Assembly (NCBI GenBank): GCA_900321505.1
Contig: ONWK01000306.1
Span: 1-35,579 of the forward strand
Reading direction: 5' to 3'
DNA from: an uncultured Eubacteriales bacterium
Lineage (GTDB): Bacteria > Bacillota > Clostridia > Lachnospirales > Lachnospiraceae
DNA: 35,579 nt
The notes beneath the pieces were generated by a model. It was not told where the DNA came from, searched no databases, and was given only the letters and a program-made list of their open reading frames with translations. The position numbers and the translations under genes were made by a program. Shown here in pieces: positions 1,485-32,926 of this stretch (positions are counted from its first letter, which is position 1; every line of letters begins with the position of its first letter).

Positions 1485-1541
1485 GAAACTGTTCAGTACC
1501 CCGGCTCCGGATGCGGAGCATCCGGGGTGCTGAATAGTTAC
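1485..1541. repeat. Intergenic palindromic repeat, copy 1 (both arms)
   Basis: GAAACTGTTCAG-TACCCCGG-CT-CCGGATGC-GGA-GCATCCGG-GGTG-CTGAATAGTTAC; arms are reverse-complementary with two G-T pairs. Confidence 0.9.
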
Positions 1542-1557
1542 ATTTTAGGAACGAAAA

Positions 1558-2667
1558 ATGACAATAGAGGATATATCCGAACTCAATATAGATGAACCTG
1601 ACAAAAATATCATGTCAGAGATAAAGGAACGCTGGGACAGTATAGCTAAACCGCTGGACGGACTTGGGCTGCTGGAGGAGATACATGCACGTACAGGTGC
1701 GATGGAAAGAACTGTTGAACCGGTGATTGATCCGGCTGTGGCTGTTACATTTTGCGGAGACCATGGTATAACAGCGGCAGGAGTAAGCCAGACCGACAGC
1801 AGCGTTACCCGGACTGTGGCGGGCTTTCTCGGACGCGGTGAAAGCTCACTGGGTCATATGGCAGCTGTGGCAGGCTGTGATACCATAGCCGTGGATGTGG
1901 GTATCATCGGGAGAAAGCCGATCCCGGGGGTACGTGACCGGAAGATCAGAGAAGGAACAAGGGATTTTCGATATGAACCGGCAATGACTCGTGAGGAGGC
2001 CCTTCAGGCCGTTTCCGTGGGTATTGAAATGGCGGAAGAGAAGGTTAAGGATGGTTACAGGCTGTTGATCCCCGGTGAGATGGGAATAGGAAATACAACG
2101 GCGGCCACAGCCATGCTGGCAGCCTTTACGGGACTTTCTGTCGAAAGCATTACGGGAACCGGCGCAGGACTTGATGAGGAAGGTCTGAAAAGAAAAAAAG
2201 CTGCGATATCCGAAGGACTGTCACGTTGGAAAGAGGAAAGGAAGCCTGAGCTTTTCGGAAAGGAAAAGCAGTCACCGGAAGCTGCGCTGGACATAATTTC
2301 CAATTTCGGAGGATATGAACTTGCGGCCATGACAGGGCTTTGTATCGGCGGAGCGCTGTTTCACACGCCTGTTGTGCTGGACGGATATCTTTCGGCAGTG
2401 GCGGGATTTGCGGCGGAAAGACTGAAGCCGGGGGTGAAAGGATATCTTATCGCTTCCCACAGCAGCAGGGAACCCGGTGCGGAGACCTGTATGAAGAAAC
2501 TGGAACTGACACCGGTTATCTACGGAAATTTCAGACTGGGGGAGGGAACGGGAGCCCTGACACTTCTTCCCATGCTCAGAATGGCTGACGCTGTATACCG
2601 CAACATGGTGCGTTTTGACGGAACGGATATAACGGCTTATAAGAGAATTCAGGAGAATAAAGAATGA
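1558..2667 (+). CDS. cobT: Nicotinate-nucleotide--dimethylbenzimidazole phosphoribosyltransferase
   Basis: AKPLDGLGLLE, GDHG, GEMGIGNTT, LDGY and RLGEGTGA motifs; cobalamin context. Confidence 0.93.
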   Translation: MTIEDISELNIDEPDKNIMSEIKERWDSIAKPLDGLGLLEEIHARTGAMERTVEPVIDPAVAVTFCGDHGITAAGVSQTDSSVTRTVAGFLGRGESSLGHMAAVAGCDTIAVDVGIIGRKPIPGVRDRKIREGTRDFRYEPAMTREEALQAVSVGIEMAEEKVKDGYRLLIPGEMGIGNTTAATAMLAAFTGLSVESITGTGAGLDEEGLKRKKAAISEGLSRWKEERKPELFGKEKQSPEAALDIISNFGGYELAAMTGLCIGGALFHTPVVLDGYLSAVAGFAAERLKPGVKGYLIASHSSREPGAETCMKKLELTPVIYGNFRLGEGTGALTLLPMLRMADAVYRNMVRFDGTDITAYKRIQENKE

Positions 2668-3116
2668 CGGAATACAGATTTTACGGAAATGAAAATCCCG
2701 CGGCAGAGGCGGTGACTGATGAATATCCCGGTATAAGGACACAGTTCGATCTGTATGATGCGCTTTCCGAACTGTGGTGTGCCGGGACCTGCGCGCCGAG
2801 AATGAGGGACCGCTGGAGTCCGGAGAATAAAACCCTGGGACAGTGTTCCATTACAGCCTTTCTGGCGCAGGACATTTTCGGCGGTAAGGTTTACGGCATA
2901 CTCCGCGACGGAGGAAACTATCACTGCTATAACGTGGTGGGAGATGTGCTGTTTGATCTGACAAGTGAGCAGTTCGGGGATGAGGTGCTGGATTATACGG
3001 ATAATCCGGAACAGCAGCGGGAGGTGCATTTCGCAAAGGAAGAAAAAAAGGCCCGCTACGAATATCTTGCGGCAGAGCTGAAGAAATACTGTATCAACAG
3101 GCAGAGTAAAAGCTGA
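2664..3116 (+). CDS. YunG-like hypothetical protein
   Basis: W..EN...GQCSITA...QDIFGG...HCYN...DLTSEQF pattern; ATGA overlap with the cobT stop. Confidence 0.65.
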   Translation: MTEYRFYGNENPAAEAVTDEYPGIRTQFDLYDALSELWCAGTCAPRMRDRWSPENKTLGQCSITAFLAQDIFGGKVYGILRDGGNYHCYNVVGDVLFDLTSEQFGDEVLDYTDNPEQQREVHFAKEEKKARYEYLAAELKKYCINRQSKS

Positions 3117-3134
3117 AAAGGCAGGAAAGAAAAG

Positions 3135-3716
3135 ATGAAATGGATCATCATCCGGCACGGAACAACAAAGGGAAATACTGAAAGAAGATTCTCAGGTATA
3201 ACGGATGACCCGCTGATCGATGAGGGGATCAGAGAACTCATCGAAAAGAAGAGCGGCGGCTTGTATTCCGAAACGGAGCAGGCTCTTGAAAACGGCGCGG
3301 GATTATATGTGAGTCCTATGAAAAGATGCACAGCTACGGCTGAGATCCTTTTTCCCGGGCGAAGCTACAGTATAGAAAAGGATTTACATGAGATCGATTT
3401 CGGTGAATTCGAAGGTAAAAACCACGCGGAACTGAACGGGCTGGAAGCATATCAGGAATGGATCGATCTGAGAGGAAAAGCACCTTTCCCGGGTGGGGAA
3501 TCAAGGGAGGAATACATTTTACGGATCCGCGGAGCACTTCGGCGTTTAGAGGACGAAGCACTGAAGGAAGGTAAGGATACGGTAGTTATCGTGGCCCACG
3601 GAGGAACCATCATGTCGGCAAGAGAGATCCTTGCCGGAGGAGATTTCTATGATGAGATACCCGAAAACGGCGGGGTATTTACGGCAGAAACAAAGACGGA
3701 AATCAGTAGTATGTAA
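3135..3716 (+). CDS. cobC: Histidine phosphatase, probable alpha-ribazole/adenosylcobalamin phosphatase (CobC-like)
   Basis: RHG, SPMKRC, EIDFGEFEG, GGES and AHGG motifs; lies near cobT. Confidence 0.75.
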   Translation: MKWIIIRHGTTKGNTERRFSGITDDPLIDEGIRELIEKKSGGLYSETEQALENGAGLYVSPMKRCTATAEILFPGRSYSIEKDLHEIDFGEFEGKNHAELNGLEAYQEWIDLRGKAPFPGGESREEYILRIRGALRRLEDEALKEGKDTVVIVAHGGTIMSAREILAGGDFYDEIPENGGVFTAETKTEISSM

Positions 3717-3742
3717 CACGGGATTTGGCAGGGACACATGAA

Positions 3743-4714
3743 ATGCAGCTGATCTGGATAAAATATCATCTGATAGCGCTCCTTATTGGGATATTGCTGG
3801 ATCTCATTATCGGGGATCCGGAGCATTTTCCTCATCCGGTGAGATGGATGGGAAGGATGATCGCAGACTACGAGGAACGCTGGAATAATGAAGAGCTGAC
3901 GGATGAAGAACGATATCATCGCGGCAGGCGCATGGCAGGCTCGGTGATCCTCCTGACAGGAGTCTACTGCGGAATTATCCTTGCGGCAGGCTATTATATT
4001 CATCCGGTGGCGGGGATCATTATTGAAGCAGTGATCACAGCCTATATGCTGGCTGCACGCTCGCTTTCCAAAGAAAGCGAAATGGTGAGGACAGCCCTGG
4101 AAAGAGGAACGCTGGAAGACGGCAGAAATGCAGTGGCCCGCATAGTTGGAAGGGATACGGCGGAGCTTTCCGAAAAGGGCGTAATTAAAGCGGCAGTTGA
4201 AACTGTGGCGGAAAACACCTCCGACGGAGTGATAGCTCCCCTGCTTTATCTGCTGATAGGAGGCCCGGTTCTGGGCTGCATATATAAGGCAGTTAATACC
4301 ATGGACTCAATGGTGGGATATAAGAATGAAAGGTATCTGTGGTTCGGCCGGGCAGCGGCAAGGCTGGATGATATGGCAAACTATATTCCGGCCAGATTAA
4401 CCGCCGGGCTGCTGATACTTTCCGCATATATCCTTCCCGGCTGCAGCGGCAGGAAGGCTGCTAAGATATGCCGCAGAGATGCCAAAAAGAGCACCAGTCC
4501 AAATTCCGGTCATCCCGAAGCGGCAGTGGCCGGAGCTCTGGGCGTCGAGCTCCTTGGGAATGCCAGCTACCACGGTATTCCGGTATATAAACCGACCATA
4601 GGGGAGCCCCTGAGGGAAATTGAGAGAGAAGATATAAGCCGTGCAAACAGGATGATGTTTACGGCTGAAGGGATAGCGATACTGCCGATCATTACAGCCC
4701 TCTTTTTTCTTTGA
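3743..4714 (+). CDS. cbiB: Adenosylcobinamide-phosphate synthase CbiB
   Basis: LDLIIGDP..HPV, IVGRDT, ETVAENTSDG, NTMDSMVGY and SPNSG motifs. ATG 3743 preferred over TTG 3725. Confidence 0.93.
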   Translation: MQLIWIKYHLIALLIGILLDLIIGDPEHFPHPVRWMGRMIADYEERWNNEELTDEERYHRGRRMAGSVILLTGVYCGIILAAGYYIHPVAGIIIEAVITAYMLAARSLSKESEMVRTALERGTLEDGRNAVARIVGRDTAELSEKGVIKAAVETVAENTSDGVIAPLLYLLIGGPVLGCIYKAVNTMDSMVGYKNERYLWFGRAAARLDDMANYIPARLTAGLLILSAYILPGCSGRKAAKICRRDAKKSTSPNSGHPEAAVAGALGVELLGNASYHGIPVYKPTIGEPLREIEREDISRANRMMFTAEGIAILPIITALFFL

Positions 4715-4716
4715 TA

Positions 4717-4746
4717 CTGGAAAAAAAGTCCTGAAGAGTATAAAAT
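4717..4746 (+). promoter_or_regulatory. Putative promoter of the PP2C gene (CTGGAA-N18-TAAAAT)
   Basis: -10-like TAAAAT at 4741-4746; the same layout recurs at 6335-6364. Confidence 0.45.
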
Positions 4747-4755
4747 AAAAGGATA

Positions 4756-4796
4756 GTAACTATTCAGAAAAAAGGAACTATGAGCTTAACAGTTGC
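4756..4796. repeat. Degenerate repeat copy (arms only, no GC core)
   Basis: Exact left arm GTAACTATTCAG (4756-4767) and a two-mismatch right arm CTTAACAGTTGC (4785-4796). Confidence 0.6.
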
Positions 4797-4833
4797 AGGG
4801 AATAATATATATATATTAAGGAATGTGTGAAGT

Positions 4834-6285
4834 ATGGATATTAGTATGACTTTTGGTAACTTTATAAACGTGATCATTATAGCGGTCGGTGTGGGAGTCT
4901 GCGGACTGAGTGTCATGCAGGTAAGCTCGGGTATCCACATCCGGCCGGAGGTGAAGAGATATTTCCAGCTGTTCTTCAGTCTGATCATAATATATATCAG
5001 CATGCATCTTATAAGGCAGATGCTGGACGGCCAACCCGGAAATGCAGTTCATGTAGTGATCATGATCGTTACATTTATCGAATTCCTGGTATCGGGTTTA
5101 ATGGCCTATATGATCTCAATGCTGATACTTTTTGTTACAAATCCCGATAAGAGAAAACAGATTGGATATTACTATCTTGCTTTGGTAATCATTCATACCA
5201 TATTACTGATCATATCCCAATTTACGGATCTTTTCTATTATTTCGATGCCACAAATACATATCACAGGGGTTCGGGATACATCCTTTCAAATCTTGCGTC
5301 AATCCTGCTGCTGCTCTCGAATGTCGTGCTCCTGATAAAGTACCGCGAGAGGGTTCCGAGAAGGATAGCCATAGCCTTCTGGATATATATCATTGCGCCT
5401 CTCGTGGCTATCGGGATCCAGGCTATACTGACTCAGGTGCAGTTTATCATAATTGCAACGGTGGGTGCGGCAATCTACATGTATTTCGCTATCATCCGGG
5501 AACAGACGGAAAGATATGAAAAGCAGCAGAAGGAGGCGAACCGGCTGGATACGGAGCTGTCCATGGCAACACGTATACAGGCGGATACACTGCCGAATAT
5601 CTTCCCTGCATTTCCGGAACGGGATGAGTTCAACATATATGCATCCATGAAACCGGCCAAGGAGGTAGGAGGAGATTTCTATGATTTCTTCCTGATCGAC
5701 AATGATCATCTGGGACTTGTTATGGCGGATGTGTCCGGTAAGGGAGTTCCGGCGGCACTATTCATGATGATATCCAAGATACTGGTTCAGAACTATGCTT
5801 CCATGGGACTGGAGCCTAAAGAGGTGCTTGAGAAGGTCAATCATCAGATATGCAAGAATAACAGGGAGGATATGTTTGTAACCGTATGGTTCGGATCACT
5901 GAATCTTGTGACCGGAAAGCTGATGGCCGGAAACGCAGGGCATGAATACCCGGTACTGAAAAAACCTGATGGGCATTTCGAACTGATAAAGGATAAGCAC
6001 GGGCTTGTTATAGGCGGTATGGACGGAGTGAGATACAGTCAGTATGAGCTTCAGATGGATCCCGGTTCAAAGCTCTTCATTTATACGGATGGTGTGCCTG
6101 AGGCAACCAATGCGGAAAATGAGCTCTTTGGAACGGATCGTATGGTGGAGGCGCTGAATCTTGCGGATGATAAATCTCCTCAGGAGATCATGGAAATGGT
6201 GGATGCAGCAGTGGAAAGCTTTGTGGGGGATGCACCGCAGTTTGACGATCTGACCATGCTTTGTATCGAGTTTGTCGGAAGATGA
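4834..6285 (+). CDS. Membrane-anchored PP2C/SpoIIE (RsbU-like) serine phosphatase
   Basis: About 7 hydrophobic segments, then VGGDFYDF, ADVSGKGVPAALFM, NAGH, YTDGVPEA and DDLT. Confidence 0.9.
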   Translation: MDISMTFGNFINVIIIAVGVGVCGLSVMQVSSGIHIRPEVKRYFQLFFSLIIIYISMHLIRQMLDGQPGNAVHVVIMIVTFIEFLVSGLMAYMISMLILFVTNPDKRKQIGYYYLALVIIHTILLIISQFTDLFYYFDATNTYHRGSGYILSNLASILLLLSNVVLLIKYRERVPRRIAIAFWIYIIAPLVAIGIQAILTQVQFIIIATVGAAIYMYFAIIREQTERYEKQQKEANRLDTELSMATRIQADTLPNIFPAFPERDEFNIYASMKPAKEVGGDFYDFFLIDNDHLGLVMADVSGKGVPAALFMMISKILVQNYASMGLEPKEVLEKVNHQICKNNREDMFVTVWFGSLNLVTGKLMAGNAGHEYPVLKKPDGHFELIKDKHGLVIGGMDGVRYSQYELQMDPGSKLFIYTDGVPEATNAENELFGTDRMVEALNLADDKSPQEIMEMVDAAVESFVGDAPQFDDLTMLCIEFVGR

Positions 6286-6334
6286 TATCCGGCAGTCCGG
6301 GCGGCTTCAGAAAGGGACAGGACCGGAAAAATCA

Positions 6335-6364
6335 CTGGAAAATCAGCACTGATAAGTGTAAAAT
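6335..6364 (+). promoter_or_regulatory. Putative promoter of the hybrid kinase (CTGGAA-N18-TAAAAT)
   Basis: Matches the 4717-4746 element in both hexamers and spacing. Confidence 0.45.
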
Positions 6365-6427
6365 GGAAATAGCGCTTTTTTTCCAGGTTCTTAAAAGTTA
6401 ACAGCCGTTTACGCGGGGGAAGGTCAT

Positions 6428-8965
6428 ATGAAGAAGATTTGGATACTTCTCATAAATGTACTTTTGATGGTGGGGATCATCGTCTTTGTATTTGTATATG
6501 CAAGGAGCACAAGAAACTCCCGCTACGAAGCCGAGAAAGAGGGCTTCAGGAATATGACCATCAGCATGGAGCAGATCACCGAAAATTATCTGTTAAGCGA
6601 ACAGCATATATGCGATGTGTGGTCAAAGTACATCAATTCCTCGGGAATGACCATGGATCAGGCGGTTGAAGTGGTCCGCGTATCCCATGTGCTCGAAGTG
6701 GCTGCGGCCCATCTGATCTTTGTTGATGATGATTCGTATATCGGTCTTTCCACCAGAGCGAATGTCAACAACCTAAACGATTATCTGGTTTCATATAAGG
6801 GCCTTGATATCGGACTTGATAAAAATGCCGGGGAAGTGGGAGAGAAGCTTCACATTACCAGATCCTATATTAATCCTATGAATGGAGTTCAGTCCATTGC
6901 ATTCTATAACAGCTTAACCCTTATTGACGGTGGGACGGGAGCACCCCGCAGGGCGCTGCTGCTGCGTGTGGTTCCGCTGAGTGAGCTGCAGACAAAATGG
7001 ATTTATCCCCAGGATGATTATAAGAATGCGGAATTCTCCATGCTTGACGAGGAGGGAAACTATGTCATCAAGGGAGAGTCCTTTGATGAAGACAGTTTTC
7101 TTGATTATTACAGTGCGTATAACAAGGCAGATCAGAGCGAGCTTGATAAGCTTGAAATTCAAATGACCTCCGGAACGGGAACAATAAATATTACAAATGA
7201 TAATAATGAAAAAGCACTGATAGTCTATACGCCGATCAAATCGGTGAAGGGCTGGAGGCTTCTGGGATATATTCCCGAAAAGGAAATGAGTATAGAAAGT
7301 ACAGACTGGGCAGTGGTAGGAACCATAGCGGCTGCCCTTATACTGCTGTTTATAGCTGATCTTGTCTTTATCCTTCATTTCAACGAACAGCTTAAGAAAA
7401 CGGCAGAAGAGGCGGAGCGGGCAAATCTTGCCAAAACGGTCTTCCTTTCCACAATGTCTCATGATATCAGAACGCCCATGAATGCCATTATAGGACTTAC
7501 GACCATTGCCGAGAAAAATATCGGGGATCCCCAGGCAGTCAGCGAGAATCTGAGGAAGATAAGCCTTTCCAGCAACCATCTGCTGACGCTGATCAATGAC
7601 ATTCTGGATATCTCAAAGGTGGAAAGCGGCAGGCTTACACTTTCGCCGGTGACCTTCTCTCTGGCAGAGACCGCTGAGAATCTGGTGAACATTTCACAGC
7701 CGATGCTGAAGGAGAAGAATATCGATTTCAACTTCAGGATCAATGCCATTCAGAGTGAGAGCCTTTATGCCGACCAGCTGAGGCTGAACCAGATATTTAT
7801 AAATCTGCTTTCAAATGCGATAAAGTATACTGAGCCGGGCGGTCAGGTAAATGTGGATCTGAGAGAGGATCCGGGATCGACGGAGGATACGGTACTTCTT
7901 ACCTATATAGTCAGTGACAACGGAATCGGAATGTCAGAGGAATTCATGAAGCGGATGTACCAGCCTTTCATGAGAGAGACGGACAGCCGTATCAATACCA
8001 TTCAGGGTACGGGACTGGGACTTGCCATAACCAAGCAAATGGTGGATCTTATGGGAGGGACCATCGACTGTGTAAGCCGTGAAAGGGAAGGCACCACATT
8101 TACGGTTAAGCTTACGCTGCCTGTGTCAGGCAAGGCACCGGTGGAAATGCACCTTGATCCGATGGATGTCCTTCTGGTGGATGATGATGAGGTCCTTCGG
8201 GAGACTGCAAAGGATACACTGAAGTCTCTCGGAGTTTTGGCGGATACGGCGGATTCCGGAGCAGAAGCGCTGAATAAGCTGAAGAGCAGGCGTGAGACGG
8301 GTGAGGATTACGGAGTCGTTATAGTGGACTGGAAGATGCCTGAGATGGATGGCGTTGAGGTGGTCCGCAGGATAAGGCAGGAGACCGGAACGCAGGCGCC
8401 TATACTTCTCATTTCAGCCTATGACTGGACGGAGATAGAGGATGCTGCAAAGCAGGCCGGTGCAAACGGTTTTATCTCCAAGCCGTTGTTCAGAACCACA
8501 CTTTACAACAAGATCACCGAGGTACTGGGACTGGATACAGGGTTTGCGGCAAATGAGGAGGACGATTCCGATATTACGGGAATGCACATTCTGGTTGCCG
8601 AGGACAATGATATCAACTGGGAGATCATCAGTGAGATACTGCACATGCATGGTATAGAATCCGAGCGTGCGGTGAACGGCAAGGAAGCTATAGAGATGTT
8701 TGAAGCGGATAAGGATGAGAAATATGAGCTCATCTTTATGGATATACAGATGCCTGTAATGAACGGCCTGGATGCAACGCGGGGTATCAGGAGCCTGGGA
8801 ACAGAGCGCGGCAGCAGTATTCCCATTATCGCCATGACGGCGGATGCATTTTCGGAAAATGTTGCAGCCTGTCTTGAGGCGGGAATGAACGGACATATAG
8901 CCAAGCCCATAGATATAAAGCATGTTATTAAGGAGATACGGAGGGTGAAGGAAGGCCGGATTTAA
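6428..8965 (+). CDS. Hybrid sensor histidine kinase with two receiver domains
   Basis: Two TM segments flank an extracellular region. H-box MSHDIRTPMNAIIG, N-box NLLSNAIKYT, DNGIG and GTGLGL; receivers DWKMP and DIQMP. Confidence 0.93.
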   Translation: MKKIWILLINVLLMVGIIVFVFVYARSTRNSRYEAEKEGFRNMTISMEQITENYLLSEQHICDVWSKYINSSGMTMDQAVEVVRVSHVLEVAAAHLIFVDDDSYIGLSTRANVNNLNDYLVSYKGLDIGLDKNAGEVGEKLHITRSYINPMNGVQSIAFYNSLTLIDGGTGAPRRALLLRVVPLSELQTKWIYPQDDYKNAEFSMLDEEGNYVIKGESFDEDSFLDYYSAYNKADQSELDKLEIQMTSGTGTINITNDNNEKALIVYTPIKSVKGWRLLGYIPEKEMSIESTDWAVVGTIAAALILLFIADLVFILHFNEQLKKTAEEAERANLAKTVFLSTMSHDIRTPMNAIIGLTTIAEKNIGDPQAVSENLRKISLSSNHLLTLINDILDISKVESGRLTLSPVTFSLAETAENLVNISQPMLKEKNIDFNFRINAIQSESLYADQLRLNQIFINLLSNAIKYTEPGGQVNVDLREDPGSTEDTVLLTYIVSDNGIGMSEEFMKRMYQPFMRETDSRINTIQGTGLGLAITKQMVDLMGGTIDCVSREREGTTFTVKLTLPVSGKAPVEMHLDPMDVLLVDDDEVLRETAKDTLKSLGVLADTADSGAEALNKLKSRRETGEDYGVVIVDWKMPEMDGVEVVRRIRQETGTQAPILLISAYDWTEIEDAAKQAGANGFISKPLFRTTLYNKITEVLGLDTGFAANEEDDSDITGMHILVAEDNDINWEIISEILHMHGIESERAVNGKEAIEMFEADKDEKYELIFMDIQMPVMNGLDATRGIRSLGTERGSSIPIIAMTADAFSENVAACLEAGMNGHIAKPIDIKHVIKEIRRVKEGRI

Positions 8966-9058
8966 GACTGTAGTGCAGCGGGATGCCTTTTCAGTATGGA
9001 ATACGGTTTTCAGGCTGAGCAGCTCAGGTAACAAAAGCCAGGATGCGGAGGAAGAAGG

Positions 9059-10120: not shown

Positions 10121-10146
10121 CCGGTAAAAGAAGGGAAGGCGGAAAA

Positions 10147-11921: not shown

Positions 11922-11964
11922 GGTTTTCGAAGCAGTGATTCCCAGTTTATCCGGGAGGGTAGAT

Positions 11965-12723: not shown

Positions 12724-12725
12724 GC

Positions 12726-13817: not shown

Positions 13818-13892
13818 GAGGTATGTGAACAGCTGCAGGACAATCTAAGAAAGGAATGATCCGTAACAGGAAAACGGATCCGGTGAACGAGG

Positions 13893-14657
13893 ATGAATGT
13901 AACGGAATATGGCGTTGATAATGAGAAGACTTTGCTGCTCCTTCCCGGGGCTTTCGCAAATGTGGAACTTTGCTACGGAAATGTAATCCCTGCGCTTGCG
14001 GAAAAATATCATGTTATAGCAGTGGATTATGACGGATTTGACGGAAAGGGCGGAGAATTCACCAGCTTTATCCGGATGGCTAAGAAGATAGAATGGCTGA
14101 TACAGAGCAAATTTGAAGGCGAGCTTTATGCTGTTTACGGTTCAGCTATCGGAAGCGATGTGGCAGGGCTTCTGATACAGAGAAAGAATATCCTGATCGC
14201 TCACGCAATACTGGGAAGCCCGGATATGGAAACCTGTGGGGAGAAGTCCGCAAAGATGCGTACAAAGATGATGGGAACCGCCATAATACGTATGATGCAG
14301 TCAGGTCAGGTTCCGGACTGGATCAGGAGATCCATGAAGCACCAGATAGGAGAGGAACGTACGGAAAGATATCTGGGTATTCTGGAAAAAATGCCTGAGA
14401 TACTTTCTGATGTGTCCAGAATAAGCATGGAAAGACAGTTCTATTCGCATTTGACAACTCATCTGGAGATGAATATTGATGTGCCCGGAACCCGGGTACA
14501 TATCTTTTTCGCAACGAAGATGGGGGAAAAATACCAGGAGCGTTATGAGCAGCATTTCAACAACCCCGATATTATCCGTAAGGATTACGGAAGTGAGGAG
14601 CTTCTTTTCTTCTATCCTGAAGAGTGGGTTGAAACTGTAGAGGAATGCCTTGTTTAG
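13893..14657 (+). CDS. Alpha/beta-hydrolase-fold protein with degenerate catalytic motifs
   Basis: LLLLPG, YHVIAVDYDGFD and an elbow-position YGSAIGS. Confidence 0.7.
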   Translation: MNVTEYGVDNEKTLLLLPGAFANVELCYGNVIPALAEKYHVIAVDYDGFDGKGGEFTSFIRMAKKIEWLIQSKFEGELYAVYGSAIGSDVAGLLIQRKNILIAHAILGSPDMETCGEKSAKMRTKMMGTAIIRMMQSGQVPDWIRRSMKHQIGEERTERYLGILEKMPEILSDVSRISMERQFYSHLTTHLEMNIDVPGTRVHIFFATKMGEKYQERYEQHFNNPDIIRKDYGSEELLFFYPEEWVETVEECLV

Positions 14658-21570: not shown

Positions 21571-21633
21571 TGATACGATGTACGGGATTCGTTTTTCGAT
21601 ATTGCCGCGGGGTATTTGACTGAGAGGCATTTC

Positions 21634-23070: not shown

Positions 23071-23090
23071 AAAATGGAAGGGAGTGTATT

Positions 23091-24158: not shown

Positions 24159-24166
24159 CAGGCAAT

Positions 24167-24210
24167 AAAAAAGAGGCAGTCACGCCATAGTGGTGTGCTG
24201 CCTCTTTTTT
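24167..24210. terminator. Bidirectional intrinsic terminator
   Basis: AAAAAAGAGGCAG-TCACGCCA-TAG-TGGTGTG-CTGCCTCTTTTTT between convergent genes. Confidence 0.9.
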
Positions 24211-24217
24211 CATGAGA

Positions 24218-24856
24218 TTAAAGCTCTTTCAGTCCTCCGGCGGATACAATGCCGTCCAGCTTCTTGCCGCTCTGGCAGAAGGGGCAGGAATGGGAGCTGA
24301 AGGAGGTGTAACCCTCAACATCCTTTGCATGGAAGATGGAATGAATGGGATATCCGCTGATCTCATCGGTAGCTGTGAAAATGGATGAGATGCCGGCGAT
24401 AACTCCACCGTAATAGTCTATACATTCCAGTGCCTTCTCCACGGTATGACCGGTGGTGGCGGTAGCAAGAAGCAGGAGCACATGCTTTCCGCGGACCATG
24501 GGAATCACATTATCCGGGAAGGTCAGCTGTCCCATGGCATTCTGCTCGGGAGTGATAACATAGATCGTTCCGTGGGCGTTCATGCACATGATACCGGATG
24601 AAGTAAGGTCATCGGCCAGGTATGCGCCTATCACATCAGTACCGTCCATGCAGATGATAACATCCACGATGGTAGTTGCAAGATATTCGGAACACATGGA
24701 CTTTGCAACGGCCTTTGCCTCGCTGCTGCGGGCTTTAAGGGTTGTAAGATCGATGTAGGCATTGATGTGTGAAGATGATGTTGCAAAGTGACCCGGAGTA
24801 ACCTTGAGATTGATAAGGTTGTTGTATGGTGAATTGATCTTGAAGCTGGTAGGCAT
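24218..24856 (-). CDS. Type I phosphoribosyltransferase-fold protein (PyrE-like, degenerate)
   Basis: GHFATSSSH.N.YID, GKHVLLLLATATTGHT and C-terminal CPFC; AAGGAG RBS. Confidence 0.75.
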   Translation of the reverse strand: MPTSFKINSPYNNLINLKVTPGHFATSSSHINAYIDLTTLKARSSEAKAVAKSMCSEYLATTIVDVIICMDGTDVIGAYLADDLTSSGIMCMNAHGTIYVITPEQNAMGQLTFPDNVIPMVRGKHVLLLLATATTGHTVEKALECIDYYGGVIAGISSIFTATDEISGYPIHSIFHAKDVEGYTSFSSHSCPFCQSGKKLDGIVSAGGLKEL

Positions 24857-24888
24857 ATTAATCTCTCCTTTTAGTAAAGATTGGCCGT

Positions 24889-24937
24889 CCTGCGATCCGG
24901 ATGCTGTTCATCCGGAGTCGTGGTGCTGAACAGCTAC
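24889..24937. repeat. Palindromic repeat, copy 2 (left outer arm missing)
   Basis: CCTGCGA-TCCGGATG-CTGTT-CATCCGGA-GTCGTGGTG-CTGAACAGCTAC. Confidence 0.9.
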
Positions 24938-24941
24938 AAGT

Positions 24942-24970
24942 ATTTTATAATATTTCAGCTGATTTCACAA
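24942..24970 (-). promoter_or_regulatory. Putative sigma-A promoter of the PRTase-like gene
   Basis: Minus strand reads TTGTGA-N17-TAAAAT. Confidence 0.55.
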
Positions 24971-25022
24971 GGAAAAAAGAGGGTGATTTTATATGCCATG
25001 CAGATGTAAAAAAAAAGTCATA

Positions 25023-25033
25023 TGTGTTATTAT
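25023..25033 (+). promoter_or_regulatory. Putative extended -10 promoter of addBA
   Basis: TGTG-T-TATTAT (TRTGn plus -10); the -35 is weak. Confidence 0.5.
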
Positions 25034-25039
25034 GGGAAC

Positions 25040-25106
25040 GTAATTATTCAGTAACCCTGCGCTCCGGATGCTGTTCATCCGGAGTCGCAGGGCGCTGAAC
25101 AGTTAC
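25040..25106. repeat. Palindromic repeat, copy 3 (complete, 67 bp)
   Basis: GTAATTATTCAG-TAACCCTGCG-CTCCGGATG-CTGTT-CATCCGGAG-TCGCAGGGCG-CTGAACAGTTAC. Confidence 0.92.
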
Positions 25107-25133
25107 CTGATATTTTAAAAGCTGCCGGGGAGG

Positions 25134-28100
25134 GTGAACATTTTGAAAAGGGCAGAAGTAAAGATCATGACAGGTCCTGCAGGATCGGGAAAGACAAGGG
25201 TATGCTATGAACAGCTGGTGGATGCCGCGGCAGAAAGACTGTCGGAGCATTTTTATCTGATCGTTCCGGAGCAGGCGGGAAGCAGTACAGAACAGCGGCT
25301 TTTGGCGGTGAACCGGGAAAGAACGGACAGACCGGGTTTTTTCAACCTGGATATTTTCGGCTTTTCAAGGCTGGCCCATACTGTTCTTTCGGATGCAGGC
25401 GTTGATACCGGGGAAGTGCTGGGAGAGTACGGGAAGACCATACTTCTGCGCTCAGTTATGGCAAGGGTAAAAAAGGAGCTTAACATATATCAGGGAAGCG
25501 TAGACAGAAGGGGCTTTGTGGACGAGATAAAATCACTTGTGTCGGAATTCCTTCTTTTTGACATCAGTCCGGAAGAGCTTGAAGAAGCGGCATCCCGGCT
25601 GGGGGCGGAGGAACGGCAGCTGCAGCGGAAGCTGGCGGATGTCATAACGATCTACAGGGCATTTCGTGAAGATCCTGTATTTACGGGTAAATATATGGCT
25701 GCAGAGGAGCTGCAGGGCTTCTTTGCGGGCTTCCTTTCGGAAGAAGGAGAAAAAGGCTCTGTTGACGGCGCTGTGTTTTATTTTGACGGCTTTACCGGAT
25801 TTACTGCCGGACAGAGGAAGGTTATCACACAGCTTGCAAAGAGGGCTTCGGAACTGCATTTTACCATAACCATGGATAATGATGACAGTACGACGGGTAT
25901 GTTTGTGCAGAGCCGGGAAATGCTGCAGCAGCTGATGAAGATCGCTCCGGATGCAAAGATCATCCTTCAGGAGAGGCCGCAGAAGGCCGGAAGACTGGCG
26001 CATCTGGAAAAGCATGCGTTCCGTTTTCCCGTACGTGAATATAAAGGTGAGGAAGGAAATGATCTAAAGGTATGGAAGGCTGAAAATCCTCTTGAGGAGC
26101 TCAGGATCATAGCAGAGGATATAGCCGGGGGAGTACGCGCCGGAAAATGCAGATACAGGGATAATGTTATACTTACTCCCGATCCGGCGGGGCTTCAGAG
26201 TTATCTGGATCAGGTCATGCGGGAATATGAGCTCCCGTATTTTATGGATACTACACGCAGCTTTACCAATAATCCCATCATAGATGCACAGCTGCTGGCT
26301 CTGGAGATAATTGACAGGGATTTTGCATATGAACCGGTATTTTCATTCCTTAAAACCTCAGCGTTGGATGCGGTACTTGCTGCGGAGGGAATAGATCCCG
26401 GTGTGGTGGAAATGCTTGAGAATCATGTTATCGCCCATGGTATCCGTGGGAGAAAGCTGTGGGGAAAAACGGTAATGCATTTTACCGGAAGAAGGGAACC
26501 GGGGGAGGAGGAAACCGTATCACTGCAGAAGATGGAGAGGCTCAGGCTGCTCTTTCTTGATATACTTAAGCCTCTTTCTTCCTTTGCGGGAGAAAAGGAG
26601 GTTCCTGTGAACCGTATGCTGAAGGGACTGCTTCAGCTGGCTGATGATACCCGCCTTATGCTTGAAGAGCGTGAGGAAACAGCGGAAAAGGAGCTTACCC
26701 GATATGGTTATCTGGCGGAGGCAAGGGCATACCGGGGACTTACGGAAAAATTCAGACAGGTACTGCAGAAAACTGCTGATATACTGGGTGAGCTTCCGAT
26801 GTCGATACATGAGCTGAGAGAAACGCTGCTTGCAGGCGCAGCAGAGCTGCATCTTGGCGCGATACCTCCCACACTGGACAGAGTGCTGATAGGAGATCTT
26901 ACAAGAACAAGAACCGATGCCGTAAGAAATGTATATATAATCAATCTTAACGAGGGCATCTTTCCGCGGCCGGCTGTCAGCGCGGGTATAATAAACGACA
27001 GGGACAGACTTACTCTGGACCGTCTGATAAATGATAAGGAGCTGGCTCCCGGTGAAGGAAGGAAAAGGGAGGAAGAACAGTTTTCACTTTATCTTGCCAT
27101 GAGCAGGGCCGTGGAAAGGCTGGTGCTCAGCTTCAGTGCGTCAGGACGCAGCGGCGGGGAGCAGGAGCGGTCATACCTGCTCGGCCGTATCATGAGGCTT
27201 TTCCCGGGACTCCGGGAGGAGATAAGAGTAAGAAAAGGGCTGTCGGGTGTCAGGATCCCTGACCGTCTCAGATATATGAAGCTTAAGGAGGAGCTCAGGG
27301 AGGGCAGGCTCGATCCGCAGGAGGAAGAGCAGTTTACACTTCTCGGACAGAGCTTTCCCGAACTGGAGCATCTGGGCGTGAGAGACCGGCAGGGAGATGA
27401 GAAGCTTCCGCCAGAGCTGATGAGCGAGCTGAAGCTCAGCATCTCGGTATCGGGCATGCAGAAATATGCCGGCTGTCCTTATTCATATTTCCTTCAGTAT
27501 ATCCTGGGACTCATGCCGAGAAGGGAGCATGATATACAGGAAAAGGATGTGGGAACGATACTTCACAGGGCGCTTGAGCTGTTGTTCCGGGAAATGAAGG
27601 ACGAAAGAAAAAATGACTGGAAGGGCATTTCCGGGGAAGAGCTCTCCGCCATGACAGTGGAAAAGGTGCGCGCGGCGGCATACGAGTCGGAGCTGATAAG
27701 GAAGGATGACATGGAGGAAACCCCCGGAAAAGCGGTACAGGTACTTCAGCAGCTGGAGGAGCTGGCAGTGGTCAGCGCACAGGTACTTAAGAGACAGCTG
27801 CAGGAGAGCAGTCTTTTACCTGAGGTTATGGAAGGCAGCTTTGAAGCCGAATTTACTGCAGACCGTCCTGACGGATCTCCGGAGACGGTCCGGATACGTG
27901 GAGTGATCGACCGACTGGATATGTTCCGGGATGAAGAAGGAACAGCTTATCTCAGGCTGCTGGATTATAAAACGGGTGATAAAAAGCTGGATCCCAGAGA
28001 TCTGCGGGACGGCAGAAATCTTCAGCTTGCGATCTATACAAAGATCCTTTCCGAATGGGCCGCAAAAAATGCAAAGGATGCGGTGCCTGCCGGTATGTAT

Positions 28101-28742
28101 TATTTCCATGTGGACAGGCCGGTGCTTGACGAAATGTCAAGGGCTGCCGTGGAGAAGGCCGGAGGTGAGGAACAGGCGGCACTGGCTGAGATAATAAAGA
28201 CTCTCCGTCTGCGCGGCTTACCGAATATCGGACCGCTGGAGGATGAGGAGAGTGAGAAACCGGTACATTATGTGCTGGAGCTTCAGGAAAAGGGCGCGGT
28301 GGGAGAAGACCGGTCACTGCAGACCGCAGTATCCCTTCCCATCACGGTTTCATCGAAGAACCATACACTGTCAGGCAATCCGACGCTTCTCAGTACGGAT
28401 GACATGATCGGCATAGGAGAATACGGATTGCTGAAAATGAAGCAGATGACAGAGGAACTCCTGAAGGGTGATATACCGAGATATCCCACAAGGGTTGCAG
28501 GTGTCCGCGTAAGCAGCTGTACATACTGTCAGGCTGCACAGGCCTGCCTTATGCGTGAGGATGAAGTACGGGAGCGGTACATTTCCGTAAATCAGGATGA
28601 TAAAGCCCTTTTCAGGGAGCTTGCCGAAGAGGGAAATGAAAATCCCGTCGCACTGAAAAATATACATATGAAGGAGCATGCTGAACCCCGGGAGATCGAG
28701 GAAAGTCTGGAAGATACGGATGATGCGGAGAAGGAGGATTAG
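25134..28742 (+). CDS. addB: ATP-dependent helicase/nuclease subunit B
   Basis: GPAGSGKT, LIVPEQ, DGFTGFT, nuclease GVIDRLD..LDYKTG..LQLAIY, and Fe-S cysteines (CPY; CTYC.....C). GTG start. Confidence 0.93.
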   Translation: MNILKRAEVKIMTGPAGSGKTRVCYEQLVDAAAERLSEHFYLIVPEQAGSSTEQRLLAVNRERTDRPGFFNLDIFGFSRLAHTVLSDAGVDTGEVLGEYGKTILLRSVMARVKKELNIYQGSVDRRGFVDEIKSLVSEFLLFDISPEELEEAASRLGAEERQLQRKLADVITIYRAFREDPVFTGKYMAAEELQGFFAGFLSEEGEKGSVDGAVFYFDGFTGFTAGQRKVITQLAKRASELHFTITMDNDDSTTGMFVQSREMLQQLMKIAPDAKIILQERPQKAGRLAHLEKHAFRFPVREYKGEEGNDLKVWKAENPLEELRIIAEDIAGGVRAGKCRYRDNVILTPDPAGLQSYLDQVMREYELPYFMDTTRSFTNNPIIDAQLLALEIIDRDFAYEPVFSFLKTSALDAVLAAEGIDPGVVEMLENHVIAHGIRGRKLWGKTVMHFTGRREPGEEETVSLQKMERLRLLFLDILKPLSSFAGEKEVPVNRMLKGLLQLADDTRLMLEEREETAEKELTRYGYLAEARAYRGLTEKFRQVLQKTADILGELPMSIHELRETLLAGAAELHLGAIPPTLDRVLIGDLTRTRTDAVRNVYIINLNEGIFPRPAVSAGIINDRDRLTLDRLINDKELAPGEGRKREEEQFSLYLAMSRAVERLVLSFSASGRSGGEQERSYLLGRIMRLFPGLREEIRVRKGLSGVRIPDRLRYMKLKEELREGRLDPQEEEQFTLLGQSFPELEHLGVRDRQGDEKLPPELMSELKLSISVSGMQKYAGCPYSYFLQYILGLMPRREHDIQEKDVGTILHRALELLFREMKDERKNDWKGISGEELSAMTVEKVRAAAYESELIRKDDMEETPGKAVQVLQQLEELAVVSAQVLKRQLQESSLLPEVMEGSFEAEFTADRPDGSPETVRIRGVIDRLDMFRDEEGTAYLRLLDYKTGDKKLDPRDLRDGRNLQLAIYTKILSEWAAKNAKDAVPAGMYYFHVDRPVLDEMSRAAVEKAGGEEQAALAEIIKTLRLRGLPNIGPLEDEESEKPVHYVLELQEKGAVGEDRSLQTAVSLPITVSSKNHTLSGNPTLLSTDDMIGIGEYGLLKMKQMTEELLKGDIPRYPTRVAGVRVSSCTYCQAAQACLMREDEVRERYISVNQDDKALFRELAEEGNENPVALKNIHMKEHAEPREIEESLEDTDDAEKED

Positions 28743-28745
28743 GCT

Positions 28746-31700
28746 GTGACAAAATGGAATGAAGGACAGCTTGAGGTCCTTGAAAGTATAGACAGGAATC
28801 ATAATATCCTGGTATCTGCCGCGGCTGGCTCAGGGAAGACGGCAGTGCTGGTGGAAAGGATAATCCGCAGCATCGAACAGGGAAAGTGCGGTATAGATGA
28901 GATTCTGGTAATGACCTTCACCAGAGCAGCTGCTGCGCAGATGAAGGGGAAGATCATAACCGGACTCGAAAACAGAGCTTATGAATCGGGAAATCCCGAA
29001 TTGCTGAAGCAGCTGAATCTTGCCGGTAATGCCGATATTTCCACTATAGACAGCTTCTGCAACCGTGTGGTAAAGGAGAATTTCCAGCTTGCAGGAATGG
29101 ATCCGGGATATTCAGTCATGGATAACGGAGAATCCGTGCTGCTTAAGGAGGAGATACTTGACGGAGTCATGGAGCAGATGTATAAGGATCCCGGATTCAA
29201 AAAGGCGGCGGCAGTTTATACCAGAAGGGCCTATGACGACAGTATGCTCAGGGATATTATCTTTGCCATAGACCGTACGGCGGACAGCTTTGCGGATCCG
29301 GAGGGATGGCTTATCAGCTGCGCTTTTCCGGCGGGTGACGATGCGGTGGAAAAGGCTCTTGCCATGCCGTGGGCTGTAAAGCTTCTGGAAGAGAAAAAGC
29401 GGCAGCTGGAACAGGCAAAAAAGGATTATGAGGAACTCAGGGACAGATATTATGCTGTGGCAGATCCGTCAGTGAGAGATACTGCGGCGAAGATTTATGC
29501 AGTACTGGATTCTGATGTGGCTGCCATTCAGTGCGGTATCAATGCCAAAGATCTTCTGAAGCTGAATGAAGCTATCTCCGTAAGAAAGACGACTTTTGCG
29601 GCGGCGTCCTATAAAAAGGTATTTTCCGGTGAGGAGATAGATGGGCTTAAAGCTGAACGTGATGCCATAGGGAAAAGGGTGGACAAGCTTAAGCTTCCCT
29701 ACGGCAGAGAAGGTTTTGAACAGGAGCTGAAGGATCATGCGTTGATACTTAATGAGCTGGTCCGGGCGGTACGGCTTTTCAGACAGGAGCTGGAAGCTGA
29801 GAAGAAACGCCGGAAGAGGTATGATTTCAGTGATATAGCCCATGCGGCATATAAGGTGCTCTTCGATACCGAAAAGAATGAGGTGACGGCTGCGGGAAGA
29901 ACCATCAGTGAACAGTACAGATATATCTATATTGACGAATATCAGGACGGAAGTGATATTCAGGAGAAGATCATGAACAGTGTGGCGCGTTATGAAAGCG
30001 GTGCACCGTCGAATATATTCATGGTAGGTGATGTAAAGCAGAGCATATACCGTTTCCGCGAGGCAAAGCCCGAGCTTTTTCTTGAAAAGGAAAGGCTTTA
30101 TAATTCTAAGGAGCTTCCGGGAGAGGTGATATATCTTAACAGGAATTACCGTTCGCGAAAAGAGATACTTGAGGCTGTGAATTTCTTTTTCAAAAAGCTA
30201 ATGAGGAAGGATTTCGGAGGGATAGTCTATGATGAAAAGGTACAGCTTAATCCCCCTGAGGATACGGAGGATGAGCCGGCTGATGAATGGAAGCCGGAGC
30301 TGATACTGGCGGATCCGGGTACTGCAGATGAAGATTCCGGACCGGTTCCGGATGACCAGGTGCTTGAAGCCCGTATGATAGCAGAGAGGATAAGGCAGCT
30401 TGTGACAGGAAACGAGCCGGTACAGTACAGTGACATAGTCATACTCCGGCGCGGAGTGAAGGGCTGCGGAAAAATGCTGAGAGAATTTGAAAGACTCGGA
30501 ATCCCCGTTCAGCTTGAAGACCCGAAGGCTTATTTTGATGCGGAGGAGGTTCTGGTGATACTGTCGGTGCTGCAGATCATAGATAACGCCAGACAGGATA
30601 TCCCATATGCGGCAGTGCTGCATTCGGTCATCGGAGGCTTTACCGATGAGGAACTGACAAGGCTTGCAATGCAGAGAGCTTATAGGGGCGAGGCCTTATA
30701 CGATACCGCGGAAAGGCTTATAAAAGAAGGAAAGGCGGAGGAAAAGCTGATAAGTCTTCACGGCATGATCGCCGGGTGGAAAAAGGAAGCCCTTTATCTT
30801 TCCATAGCTCAGCTTATTGACAGGATACTTACCGACACGGAGTATCTGTTGTATGCGGCATCATTGCCCCGGGGAGGAAAAAGACAGAGCAACCTTATGC
30901 GTCTCATGGCGAAGGCGGAGGATTTTGAAAAGGCAGGGAACCACGGGCTTTTCGCCTTCCTGAGATATATAGAAAAATGCAGGATACATGAGGCTGATTT
31001 CGGGGCATCGGGCGGTTTTTCCGAGGGAAGCAACAGTGTTCATATCTGTACCATCCACAGTTCAAAGGGACTTGAATATCCTGTTGTATTCCTTGCGGGA
31101 TTAGGCAGGAAATATAATACGATGGATCAGAAAAAGCCGGTTGCGGTAAGCGCGAGATACGGCATCGCTCCAAATCATGTACGCAGGATCGGAAGGGGAT
31201 ATATCCAGTCGTCGAAGGGGATCTGCAGGGATGCGGTAAACAGGCTGGAATACCTTGAATCGGTACATGAAGAGCTGAGACTGCTTTATGTGGGAATGAC
31301 CAGGGCAAAGGACAGGCTGATAATGACCGGAGTAAGAAAGGATGCATATGAAAGCCTCAGTCCGGTTGATGGAGACGGAAACCTTTCTTATTCGGAACTT
31401 ACGGATTCTGATTCGGATCTGGATTTTATACTGAAAGTGATAAGAAAAAATGGAAAAGAAGCAGAAAAGTATGTTAGAATCAGTATCCGGGGCATGGATG
31501 AGCTTATGCCGGATGCTGCTGAGACTGAGCTGAAGCCTGTCATTGAAAATAATGAGGGGGAGCTTACGGAGGAGCTTGACGGTCTTCGTAAGAAACTGCA
31601 GGAATCCTATGATTTCACTTATCCCTTCAGAGCTGCTGTGGAGACCAGAACCAAGGTATCTGTATCCGAGATAAAGCATGAGGCTATGGAGAGGAAGGGA

Positions 31701-32366
31701 GCCGGGATAGAGCAGGAACACCCTGTGGATAAGAGCGGCGGACAGAAAAAAGAAGGAACCGGAAAGACAGGAGAAGCTGTCAGTGCGGCGGATTACGGTA
31801 CAGCGGTCCACAAGCTTATGGAACTCCTTCCCTTCCGAAGACTGAACAGCCGGGCCGAGATGGAAAATGTACTGAAGGATGAACTGAACACTTCATTTTT
31901 CACACCGGAGCTTAGAAAAAGGATAAGGGTGGGATCACTGGCTGATTTTTATTCGGATGAGCCGGGAAGCCTTTTTGCACGGATGAGAAGGGCGGACCGG
32001 GAAGGAAAGCTTTATAAGGAACAGCAGTTCCTGATCGGGCTTCCGGGAAGCAGGCTTGGGCAGGAGATCCCGGTGGAGGATGAGGAAGGCCGGCCGGAGG
32101 CGCTCAGCTATGAAACTGATGAGACGGTAGTCATGCAGGGTGTGATCGACGGATTCTTTCTTGAAACGGATGAAAAGGGTCGTGAATATGCAGTACTGAT
32201 GGACTATAAAACAGACAGGGTGGACAGCCCCGATGATCTGATAAGAAGGTACAGTGCGCAGCTTTCGTTATATAAGGAAACACTGGAGGGAATACTCAGG
32301 CTTCCGGTCCGCGAGGTGTGGCTGTACGGATTCTCCCGGGGAATGGGAGAGATCAGGATGGAATAA
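28746..32366 (+). CDS. addA: ATP-dependent helicase/nuclease subunit A
   Basis: [52 protein letters not shown], and nuclease GVID..DYKTD..QL..Y. Confidence 0.95.
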
Positions 32367-32391
32367 GAGCTTACAGGAAAGGATGGAAAAA

Positions 32392-32886
32392 ATGTCAAGA
32401 ACCAAAGATGAAACCCAGGGCATTTCGCTGTTAAAGGAGACGCTGACAAAATATCCGCTGGATTATACACCTGACGTGCTGGAAACATTTGTTAACAAGC
32501 ATCAGGAAAATGATTACTTTGTGAAGTTTAACTGTCCGGAGTTTACTTCGCTTTGTCCTATAACGGGACAGCCGGATTTTGCGTCCATTACCATTTCCTA
32601 TATTCCGGGTGAAAGGATGGTTGAGTCAAAATCACTGAAGCTGTATCTTTTCGGTTTCAGGAATCACGGGGATTTTCATGAGGACTGCGTAAATATCATC
32701 ATGAAGGATCTGATAAAGCTTATGGACCCGAAATATATTGAGGTGTGGGGCAAGTTTACGCCCCGAGGAGGTATATCCATCGATCCGTATGCGAACTATG
32801 GAAGACCCGGTACGAAATGGGAGGAACTGGCCTGGCAGCGGCTTTCACAGCATGATATGTATCCGGAGAAGGTGGATAACCGTTAA
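32392..32886 (+). CDS. queF: NADPH-dependent preQ0 reductase (type I QueF)
   Basis: [31 protein letters not shown] and FTPRGGI. The ORF-track start at 32254 lies inside addA. Confidence 0.95.
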
Positions 32887-32888
32887 GC

Positions 32889-32926
32889 TGCGGAGCATCC
32901 GGAGTCATAGGGTGCTGAACAGTTAC
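32889..32926. repeat. Palindromic repeat, copy 4 (loop plus right half only)
   Basis: TGCGGAGCATCCGGAGTCATAGGGTG-CTGAACAGTTAC; fills nearly the whole queF-folC gap. Confidence 0.88.

What the first reader, a model, noticed from the sequence alone, without database searches (positions are those of the whole stretch)
1485..32926. Dispersed intergenic palindromic repeat family with GTAACTRTTCAG...CTGAAYAGTTAC arms
Seen: five copies, at 1485-1541, 4756-4796, 24889-24937, 25040-25106 and 32889-32926. Together they give eight 12-bp half-sites, each within two mismatches of CTGAAYAGTTAC, all in the few short intergenic gaps. Four copies share a nested GC core (CCGGATG-loop-CATCCGG, only the right half in copy 4) with two loop types, CGGAG and CTGTT. 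The outer arms persist when the interior shrinks (copy 1) or is replaced (4756 copy). No target-site duplication, transposase or recombinase is visible. Inference: this is a REP/MITE-like non-autonomous element or protein-binding site family whose cognate protein recognises the 12-bp arm and is encoded elsewhere. I cannot assign it to a named family.
Basis: partly seen in the sequence, partly recalled or inferred. Interest (0 to 1): 0.78.

Follow-up and report, generated by a model that had tools for sequence, protein, structure and literature searches.

The report
IS66-type mini-transposon with folded cloverleaf core
The repeats are decayed copies of a ~164-base gene-less mobile element whose ends and 8-base insertion footprint match single-gene IS66 insertion sequences of gut Lachnospiraceae, which likely move it: an ordinary kind of genomic parasite, except that its interior keeps a cloverleaf fold predicted to act as single-stranded DNA.

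Summary
The repeat is real (69 exact arms in the genome against 1-2 simulated) and is a MITE. The arms (about 17-19 bp) match the ends of 1.8-kb single-ORF IS66/ISBst12-type elements of Lachnospiraceae, which also make 8-bp duplications; copy 1's right end is 19/19 identical to one. No such transposase was found in this 79%-complete genome. Window copies are remnants of a 163-165-bp master with three hairpins; in another strain the copy-1 site holds the full 164 bp. The master recurs in other genera with strong compensatory pairing (38 of 65 pairs) and DNA-type mini-hairpin loops on one strand. It parallels, but does not score as, Rfam Clostridiales-1. No Rfam match; no description found in the searched papers. 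This scan has reported the same kind of element on other DNA (e1-5267637, e1-3987286, e1-4004700). Verdict: a new member of a known kind; the function of the fold is open.

The parts
1477..1484 (.). left copy of the 8-bp target duplication of copy 1
   Evidence: 7/8 identical to 1542-1549
1485..1541 (+). Copy 1: both TIRs plus hairpin A; internal-deletion derivative of the ~164-bp master, between cobQ and cobT
   Evidence: Right end 19/19 identical to the left end of IS elements L060/L072/L132. A contig of run X3 has 107 extra bases at 1523-1525, giving 164 bp, and the same contig aligns to a full-length copy (record 11). Model R1 E 7e-7.
1542..1549 (.). right copy of the 8-bp target duplication of copy 1
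4756..4796 (.). Copy 2: two degenerate IS66-type arms with an unrelated 17-bp interior; likely an old remnant, possibly of a sister family
   Evidence: Arms 0 and 2 mismatches; flanks 5/8; not hit by HMM or covariance model
24881..24937 (-). Copy 3: one TIR, hairpin A and the start of hairpin B (master positions 2-57); other end lost
   Evidence: HMM E 6.8e-5; no matching duplication upstream
25040..25106 (+). Copy 4: both TIRs plus hairpin A; internal-deletion derivative, upstream of addB
   Evidence: HMM and covariance-model hits; flanks do not match
32889..32926 (-). Copy 5: one TIR plus half of hairpin A, right after the queF stop codon
   Evidence: First 17 bases of the arm identical to the left end of IS L075; model R1 E 0.057

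Best explanation
These are remnants of a ~164-bp non-autonomous transposon (MITE) whose terminal inverted repeats and 8-bp target duplication match single-ORF IS66-family (ISBst12-type) insertion sequences, whose transposase likely mobilised it in trans. Shown: end identity, 8-bp duplications, a master made of a TIR stem closing three hairpins (A, B, C), a full-length allele at the copy-1 site in another strain, and a patchy spread of homologues across Lachnospiraceae genera. Inferred: a visiting ~1.8-kb IS supplied the DDE transposase, the MITE spread to on the order of 100 intergenic sites, and the IS was then lost or was not assembled. Copies then decayed by deletion between short repeats inside the hairpin-rich interior (3-bp microhomology at copy 1), which leaves the arms and often the duplication. 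Inferred more weakly: the interior fold is kept by selection on a single-stranded DNA form of one strand.
For: Copy number: 69 exact and 173 one-mismatch arms against 1-2 and 21-24 in two order-4 Markov genomes; 12 of 69 exact arms lie inside ORFs, which cover 89% of the genome. Duplication: 11 of 55 paired copies match at <=1 mismatch at 8 bp (4 perfect; permutation mean 0.07), 2 of 55 at 7 bp and 0 of 55 at 9 bp. Partner: 44 of 80 loci holding relatives of a 488-aa transposase (NF033517 256.7 bits, cut-off 180; one ORF in 1,815 bp) have both ends. Each of positions 1-12 of their 88 ends follows GTAACTRTTCAG in at least 85 of 88, and 19 of 36 with both flanks have an 8-bp duplication at <=1 mismatch. 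ISDge4, an ISBst12-group element shown to transpose, has near-identical TIRs, one ORF and an 8-bp DR (PMC12898284 passages). Deletion allele. A short 82-bp copy on C124 is spanned by independent contigs of X2 and X5, so that copy is not an assembly artefact. Cross-species empty site: L330 has a full copy with a perfect duplication where the orthologous G000 site has none. Other genomes: 15 of 26 model hits examined have an 8-bp duplication, as do 23 of 40 paired elements (partner choice there rewarded a duplication).
Against: No cognate transposase was found in G000 (79% complete), and no close one in 63 congeners (7 weak hits at 23-37% identity). Only 4 of 10 other arm-rich genomes hold all or part of one. 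No empty site was found within the species. The cross-species empty site has only 14 bases of left flank. 44 of 55 paired copies lack a clear duplication, and 96 of 123 arm loci have a single arm. The interior has no similarity to the IS beyond about 20 terminal bases, so it is not a simple internal deletion of the IS. Mobilisation was not tested.
Confidence: 0.92

Rival explanations
1. REP/REPIN-like elements spread by an HUH (RAYT) transposase acting on the GTAG-plus-hairpin core; the arms are incidental.
For: G000 copies contain a GTAG next to hairpin B and a CCGGATG/CATCCGG palindrome that recalls enterobacterial REPs (recalled, not from a call). The loops look like ssDNA hairpins.
Against: The GTAG is not kept in G345/G076 homologues. 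The only Y1 hit in G000 is a partial frame with none of these arms. Boundaries and 8-bp duplications sit exactly at the IS66 ends.
Confidence: 0.03
2. Host protein-binding or regulatory sites (operator, terminator or RNA stabiliser) kept by selection on the neighbouring genes.
For: 84 of 123 loci lie in gaps between called genes, and the fold is conserved.
Against: The master is found in only 2 of 64 genomes of the genus. Convergent gaps are not enriched (9 of 84, background 126 of 1,024). Neighbouring genes are unrelated, and the interior is deleted freely. Single copies may still have been co-opted.
Confidence: 0.03
3. The element is an IS66-type MITE, but the interior covariation arises from hairpin self-correction (template switching) or from selection on an RNA, not on ssDNA. 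This rival concerns the interior only and is compatible with the main verdict.
For: Quasi-palindromes are known to self-correct (recalled). The loop of hairpin A is inverted in window copy 1 relative to most copies. CUUG closed by G-C is also a stable RNA loop (recalled). The same strand folds better as RNA in 16 of 17 copies.
Against: Self-correction does not explain why the loops keep G and A while the middle base takes all four values (GCGNAGC in 12 of 17 A loops and 13 of 17 B loops; GCTTGC in 14 of 17 C loops, all on one strand). GCGNAGC is an extraordinarily stable DNA motif, and the RNA counterpart of the related GCGAAAGC hairpin is much weaker (PMC13037366 abstract and passages).
Confidence: 0.45

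Closest known systems
IS66 family, single-ORF ISBst12 group (ISBst12, ISDge4; the 1.8-kb Lachnospiraceae elements L035, L060, L072, L075)
   Same: Terminal sequence (up to 19-20 bases identical), 8-bp target duplication, host family.
   Different: No transposase; 32-212 bp instead of about 1.8 kb; both ends resemble the IS left end; interior unrelated to the IS.
Prokaryotic MITEs (review PMC10969869; survey PMC11602168)
   Same: Short, non-coding, TIR-bounded, TSD-flanked, intergenic, multi-copy, dependent on a transposase in trans.
   Different: Neither paper's main text mentions IS66 or Lachnospiraceae (term searches; supplements not seen). The interior shows cross-genus compensatory pairing, and most copies are internal deletions.
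Clostridiales-1 motif (Rfam RF01699; PMC2864571)
   Same: About 165 nt, a closing stem with three hairpins, GCTTGC and GCGNAGC loops in the same order on one strand, many copies in the same genomes. Model R1 hits all 9 copies tested on the expected strand, at 11-44 bits.
   Different: Different termini and loci; this element gives no RF01699 hit at E<=10 on its own or at E<=1 in G000.
REP/REPIN with RAYT
   Same: Intergenic palindromic repeats with stable hairpins.
   Different: IS66 ends and 8-bp duplications; no RAYT partner found; GTAG not conserved.

Membership tests
MITE (non-autonomous IS derivative) | short, no transposase gene | tested here: met
   Paired copies 32-212 bp
MITE (non-autonomous IS derivative) | terminal inverted repeats shared with an autonomous IS | tested here: met
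   19-20 bases identical to IS left ends
MITE (non-autonomous IS derivative) | target duplication of the partner's length | tested here: met
   8 bp in MITE (11 of 55) and in IS (19 of 36); 0 at 9 bp
MITE (non-autonomous IS derivative) | dispersed multicopy, intergenic | tested here: met
   123 loci, 20 inside ORFs, reversed-pattern control 3 hits
MITE (non-autonomous IS derivative) | filled and empty alleles | tested here: inconclusive
   One cross-species pair with a short left flank; none within the species
MITE (non-autonomous IS derivative) | mobilised in trans by the transposase | not testable with these tools
   Needs a transposition assay; no partner found in G000
IS66 / ISBst12 group (partner element) | IS66-family transposase | tested here: met
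   NF033517 above cut-off and PF03050 for L035 and L034
IS66 / ISBst12 group (partner element) | single ORF, no accessory genes | tested here: met
   One ORF >=100 aa in the 1,815-bp element; definition from PMC12898284
IS66 / ISBst12 group (partner element) | phylogenetic placement with ISBst12 itself, ISfinder name | not tested
   No ISfinder access; no tree built
Clostridiales-1 (RF01699) | scores above the gathering threshold of RF01699 | tested here: not met
Clostridiales-1 (RF01699) | four-stem architecture of similar length | tested here: met
   Folds; weak same-orientation hits
REP/RAYT | conserved GTAG-type tetranucleotide before the hairpin | tested here: not met
   Lost in G345, G076, G016, G359, G393
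REP/RAYT | RAYT gene flanked by the repeats | tested here: not met
   Single partial Y1 frame without these arms; genome 79% complete

The most novel reading that the evidence does not exclude
The interior is a selected single-stranded-DNA cloverleaf (GNA mini-hairpins plus a CTTG mini-loop on one strand) that works as a cis-acting device for copying or protecting the element, for example a priming or transposase-loading site. It is a portable cargo captured by several unrelated end systems: IS66 ends here, other ends in 3 of 26 model hits, and TA-flanked ends in some Clostridiales-1 copies. On this reading the orphan 'RNA' Clostridiales-1 is the DNA body of MITEs, and these elements reveal a single-stranded step in IS66 transposition.
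Probability: 0.3. Interest if true: 0.7.

Novelty: new member of a known kind. Interest (0 to 1): 0.36.

Why it matters
As a MITE family it is ordinary, but it names the mover for an abundant repeat of gut Lachnospiraceae and offers a minimal natural substrate for the little-studied ISBst12-group transposase. The strand-polarised, covarying cloverleaf is the part worth testing. It bears on whether IS66 transposition has a single-stranded step and on whether Rfam's Clostridiales-1 is an RNA at all. It also warns that covariation screens can pick up MITE bodies.

Tried and rejected
Rfam: 0 hits at gathering score in the window, only chance hairpin families on 8 loci and on one full copy. PF03050 and protein searches of G000 found nothing. 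The 30 top-scoring IS66 loci of the family (L001-L030) showed no such arms; the two whose ends could be paired read GTAAGCGTC. Y1 transposase: unrelated fragment. Empty-site search within the species: none of the listed joints removes a copy in 4 runs on window 200-6200 or 4 runs on C124 (tables were cut; contigs show presence, not absence). A metagenome scan with a copy-1 flank found 0 records. G170's cobT locus is not syntenic upstream; the cobQ-cobT gaps of other congeners were located but not read for the element. No RNA holder was listed, which is no evidence on expression. Copy 2 as a remnant of the G412/G430 family: a short resemblance by eye, with no interior BLAST support and no other such copy in G000; left open. 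Papers: 0 hold IS66+ISBst12+MITE. ISBst12 occurs in 6 (passages of 2 read). IS66+MITE occurs in 24 (listing only, except passages of PMC3281130, with no IS66 MITE). The arm 12-mers occur in 19 papers, none on this subject by listing. Lachnospiraceae+miniature inverted gave 4 papers, none on this subject by listing. Han 2001 was not held; Gourbeyre 2010, TnCentral and ISfinder were not seen, so an IS66 MITE may be catalogued there. The discussion of Clostridiales-1 in the supplements of PMC2864571 was not found (table rows, alignment header and figure page only).

Full report
Observation. The 12-mer has 10 matches at <=2 mismatches in the window against 2.93 expected. Eight belong to the copies; two lie in ORFs. 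The window is a cobalamin gene cluster followed by trkA/trkH, addB/addA and queF. It is contig C343 of a 2.6-Mb, 79%-complete assembly. Holders of the stretch are mostly recorded as bovine gut metagenomes. The family is Lachnospiraceae by inference from the titles of related records (L056 is the same record as G054's contig).

Genome-wide. The arm occurs 69 times exactly and 173 times with one mismatch, against 1-2 and 21-24 in two simulated genomes. A 15-base version gives 150 hits in 123 loci: 84 in gaps between called genes, 20 inside ORFs, 19 at edges; the reversed control gives 3. Only 25 loci have a proper pair and 96 have one arm. Convergent gaps are not enriched (9 of 84; background 126 of 1,024).

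Footprint. I paired inverted arms within 400 bp (59 pairs) and dropped the 4 longer than 215 bp as chance. Among the 55 left, the flanks match at <=1 mismatch in 11 at 8 bp (4 perfect; permutation mean 0.07), 2 at 7 bp and 0 at 9-12 bp. Window copy 1 is one of the 11, so 'no target-site duplication' is wrong. 44 of 55 show no clear duplication, as expected for old copies, although this also limits the inference per copy.

Partner. GTAA termini with 8-bp duplications suggested IS66 (recalled lead). G000 has no PF03050 hit and no hit to the candidate transposase. In 151 family genomes, the 30 top-scoring IS66 loci showed no such arms. I then fetched 20 of the weaker full-length hits. Three (L034, L035, L037) end in the same arm, and several others end in a GTTAC variant. 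L035 is a 1,815-bp element with one 488-aa ORF that passes NF033517. Of 80 loci with relatives, 44 have both ends. Their 88 ends read GTAACTRTTCAG then (A/C)ACCCC, and 19 of 36 with both flanks carry an 8-bp duplication; several loci come from one genome. Copy 1's right end is 19/19 identical to the left end of L060/L072/L132, and copy 5's arm is 17/17 identical to that of L075. Nothing inside the first 20 bases aligns to the IS. PMC12898284 (passages) describes ISDge4 as an ISBst12-group, single-ORF IS66 element with TIRs GTGACTACTCAGCA and GTAACTGCTCAGCA, an 8-bp DR and observed transposition. Against: no close transposase in 63 congeners, and all or part of one in only 4 of 10 other arm-rich genomes.

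Anatomy. The longest common form is 160-165 bp: a TIR stem closing hairpins A, B and C. Window copies 1, 3, 4 and 5 keep only a TIR or two plus all or part of A. A 1,640-base contig of run X3, about 95% identical over cobQ, aligns to 200-1525 and 1523-1678 with 104 bases between. That gives 164 bp with a 3-base overlap, and the same contig aligns to a full-length copy. Copy 1 is therefore a deletion allele, or an assembly collapse, which I did not exclude for this copy. An 82-bp short copy on C124 is spanned by contigs of two other runs, so short forms exist. Copy 2 has arms only. No empty allele appeared within the species. Across species, L330 has a full copy with a perfect 8-bp duplication, and the orthologous G000 site (C419, right flank 73% identical) lacks it. 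L330 offers only 14 bases of left flank.

Distribution. The master is in 2 of 64 genomes of the genus. G170's best copy (95% identical) lies near a 1,061-bp segment 99.2% identical to G000, which suggests transfer or mis-binning. In 401 family genomes 68 have the arm, and 11 including G000 have 10 or more hits; in G036 these are IS ends. G076, G345, G016, G359 and G393 carry 155-168-bp homologues. G145, G412, G430 and G451 carry other interiors between the same arms. A covariance model hits 22 of 151 family genomes. Of the 26 non-G000, non-G076 loci returned, 23 have the arms, 15 have an 8-bp duplication, and 3 have the fold with other termini.

The fold. On 17 full copies from 7 genomes, 89.7% of cells pair and 38 of 65 pairs change on both sides (0 of 500 shuffles; slid controls 38-44% paired). 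All such changes are in the interior and none in the TIR stem. The copies are related and the structure was drawn from them, so these numbers are not probabilities. On one strand, loops A and B read GCGNAGC in 12 and 13 of 17 (N = A, G, C, and T once) and loop C reads GCTTGC in 14 of 17. GCGNAGC is the extraordinarily stable DNA mini-hairpin, which resists nucleases, binds SSB poorly and occurs at the G4 origin, ssiA and N4 promoters (PMC13037366 abstract and passages). This points to selection on ssDNA, but self-correction of palindromes or an RNA role is not excluded. The strand counts are partly circular because the model contains these loops.

Comparison. Earlier AI notes on other genomes reached the same IS66/ISBst12 MITE class after I had, and gave the Clostridiales-1 lead. 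Tested here: RF01699 hits G000 at 5 places, none at this family's loci, and a full copy gives no hit. The RF01699 copies have the same length, stem layout and loop order but other termini. My model hits all 9 tested on the expected strand at 11-44 bits, a level that unrelated interiors reach through the arms alone. So the element is built like Clostridiales-1 but is not a member. PMC2864571 lists that motif as a probable RNA (table row). The literature searches found no description of this family or of an IS66-derived MITE; ISfinder and subscription papers were not seen.

Verdict. IS66/ISBst12-type MITE, confidence 0.92; new member of a known kind; interest 0.36. Novel case: a functional, portable ssDNA cloverleaf, probability 0.3, interest 0.7 if true.

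Noticed in passing
G000 C154:2745-2840, C204:7141-7235, C19:4423-4475, plus single arms on C21, C176, C201, C237, C276, C318, C383, C419: A second family with arms ending ...TTCAC instead of ...TTCAG, a different interior, and a 7/8 duplication at C204; likely served by a sister IS66 subgroup.
   Followed up: partly
L320-L329 (G000 C170:9134-9305, C134:2600-2762; G345; G076): Clostridiales-1 copies are multi-copy (32 and 55 hits at E<=1 in G345 and G076) with several kinds of termini; those ending TAAGTCCC/GGGACTTA are flanked by TA on both sides, as IS630/mariner-type MITEs would be.
   Followed up: partly
L272 (G076:C11, about 57314-57427): A chimera: an IS66-type arm and half of hairpin A joined, at a shared GCGCAGC loop, to the last two hairpins of a Clostridiales-1 copy.
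   Followed up: no
L163:2103-3163 (G170:C64) versus G000 C142:1204-2264: 1,061 bp at 99.2% identity between two species whose core genes are about 70% identical, near a 95%-identical MITE copy: recent transfer or mis-binning.
   Followed up: partly
L169:1455-1702 (G170:C5): Tandem B-A-B-A-B-C arrangement of the hairpin modules with decayed arms.
   Followed up: no
G000 C185:2106-2317 and C360:6094-6271: Longer copies with extra hairpin modules inserted inside the master.
   Followed up: no
G000 C419:1995-2050 versus L330: Reciprocal presence: G000 has a TTCAC-family remnant in a promoter region where L330 has none, while L330 has the three-hairpin MITE about 60 bases upstream where G000 has none.
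   Followed up: partly
L031-L033, L332-L334 (viral contigs): Short elements with these arms, and left ends of the IS, occur on viral contigs, a possible route between genera.
   Followed up: no
L054:681-914 (G000 C258): A 5'-truncated Y1 (IS200-like) transposase remnant followed by short palindromes; unrelated to the arms.
   Followed up: partly
window 13893-14657 (+) and 24218-24856 (-): Two ORFs with no Pfam hit at E<=1e-5; the first sits inside the cbi cluster.
   Followed up: no
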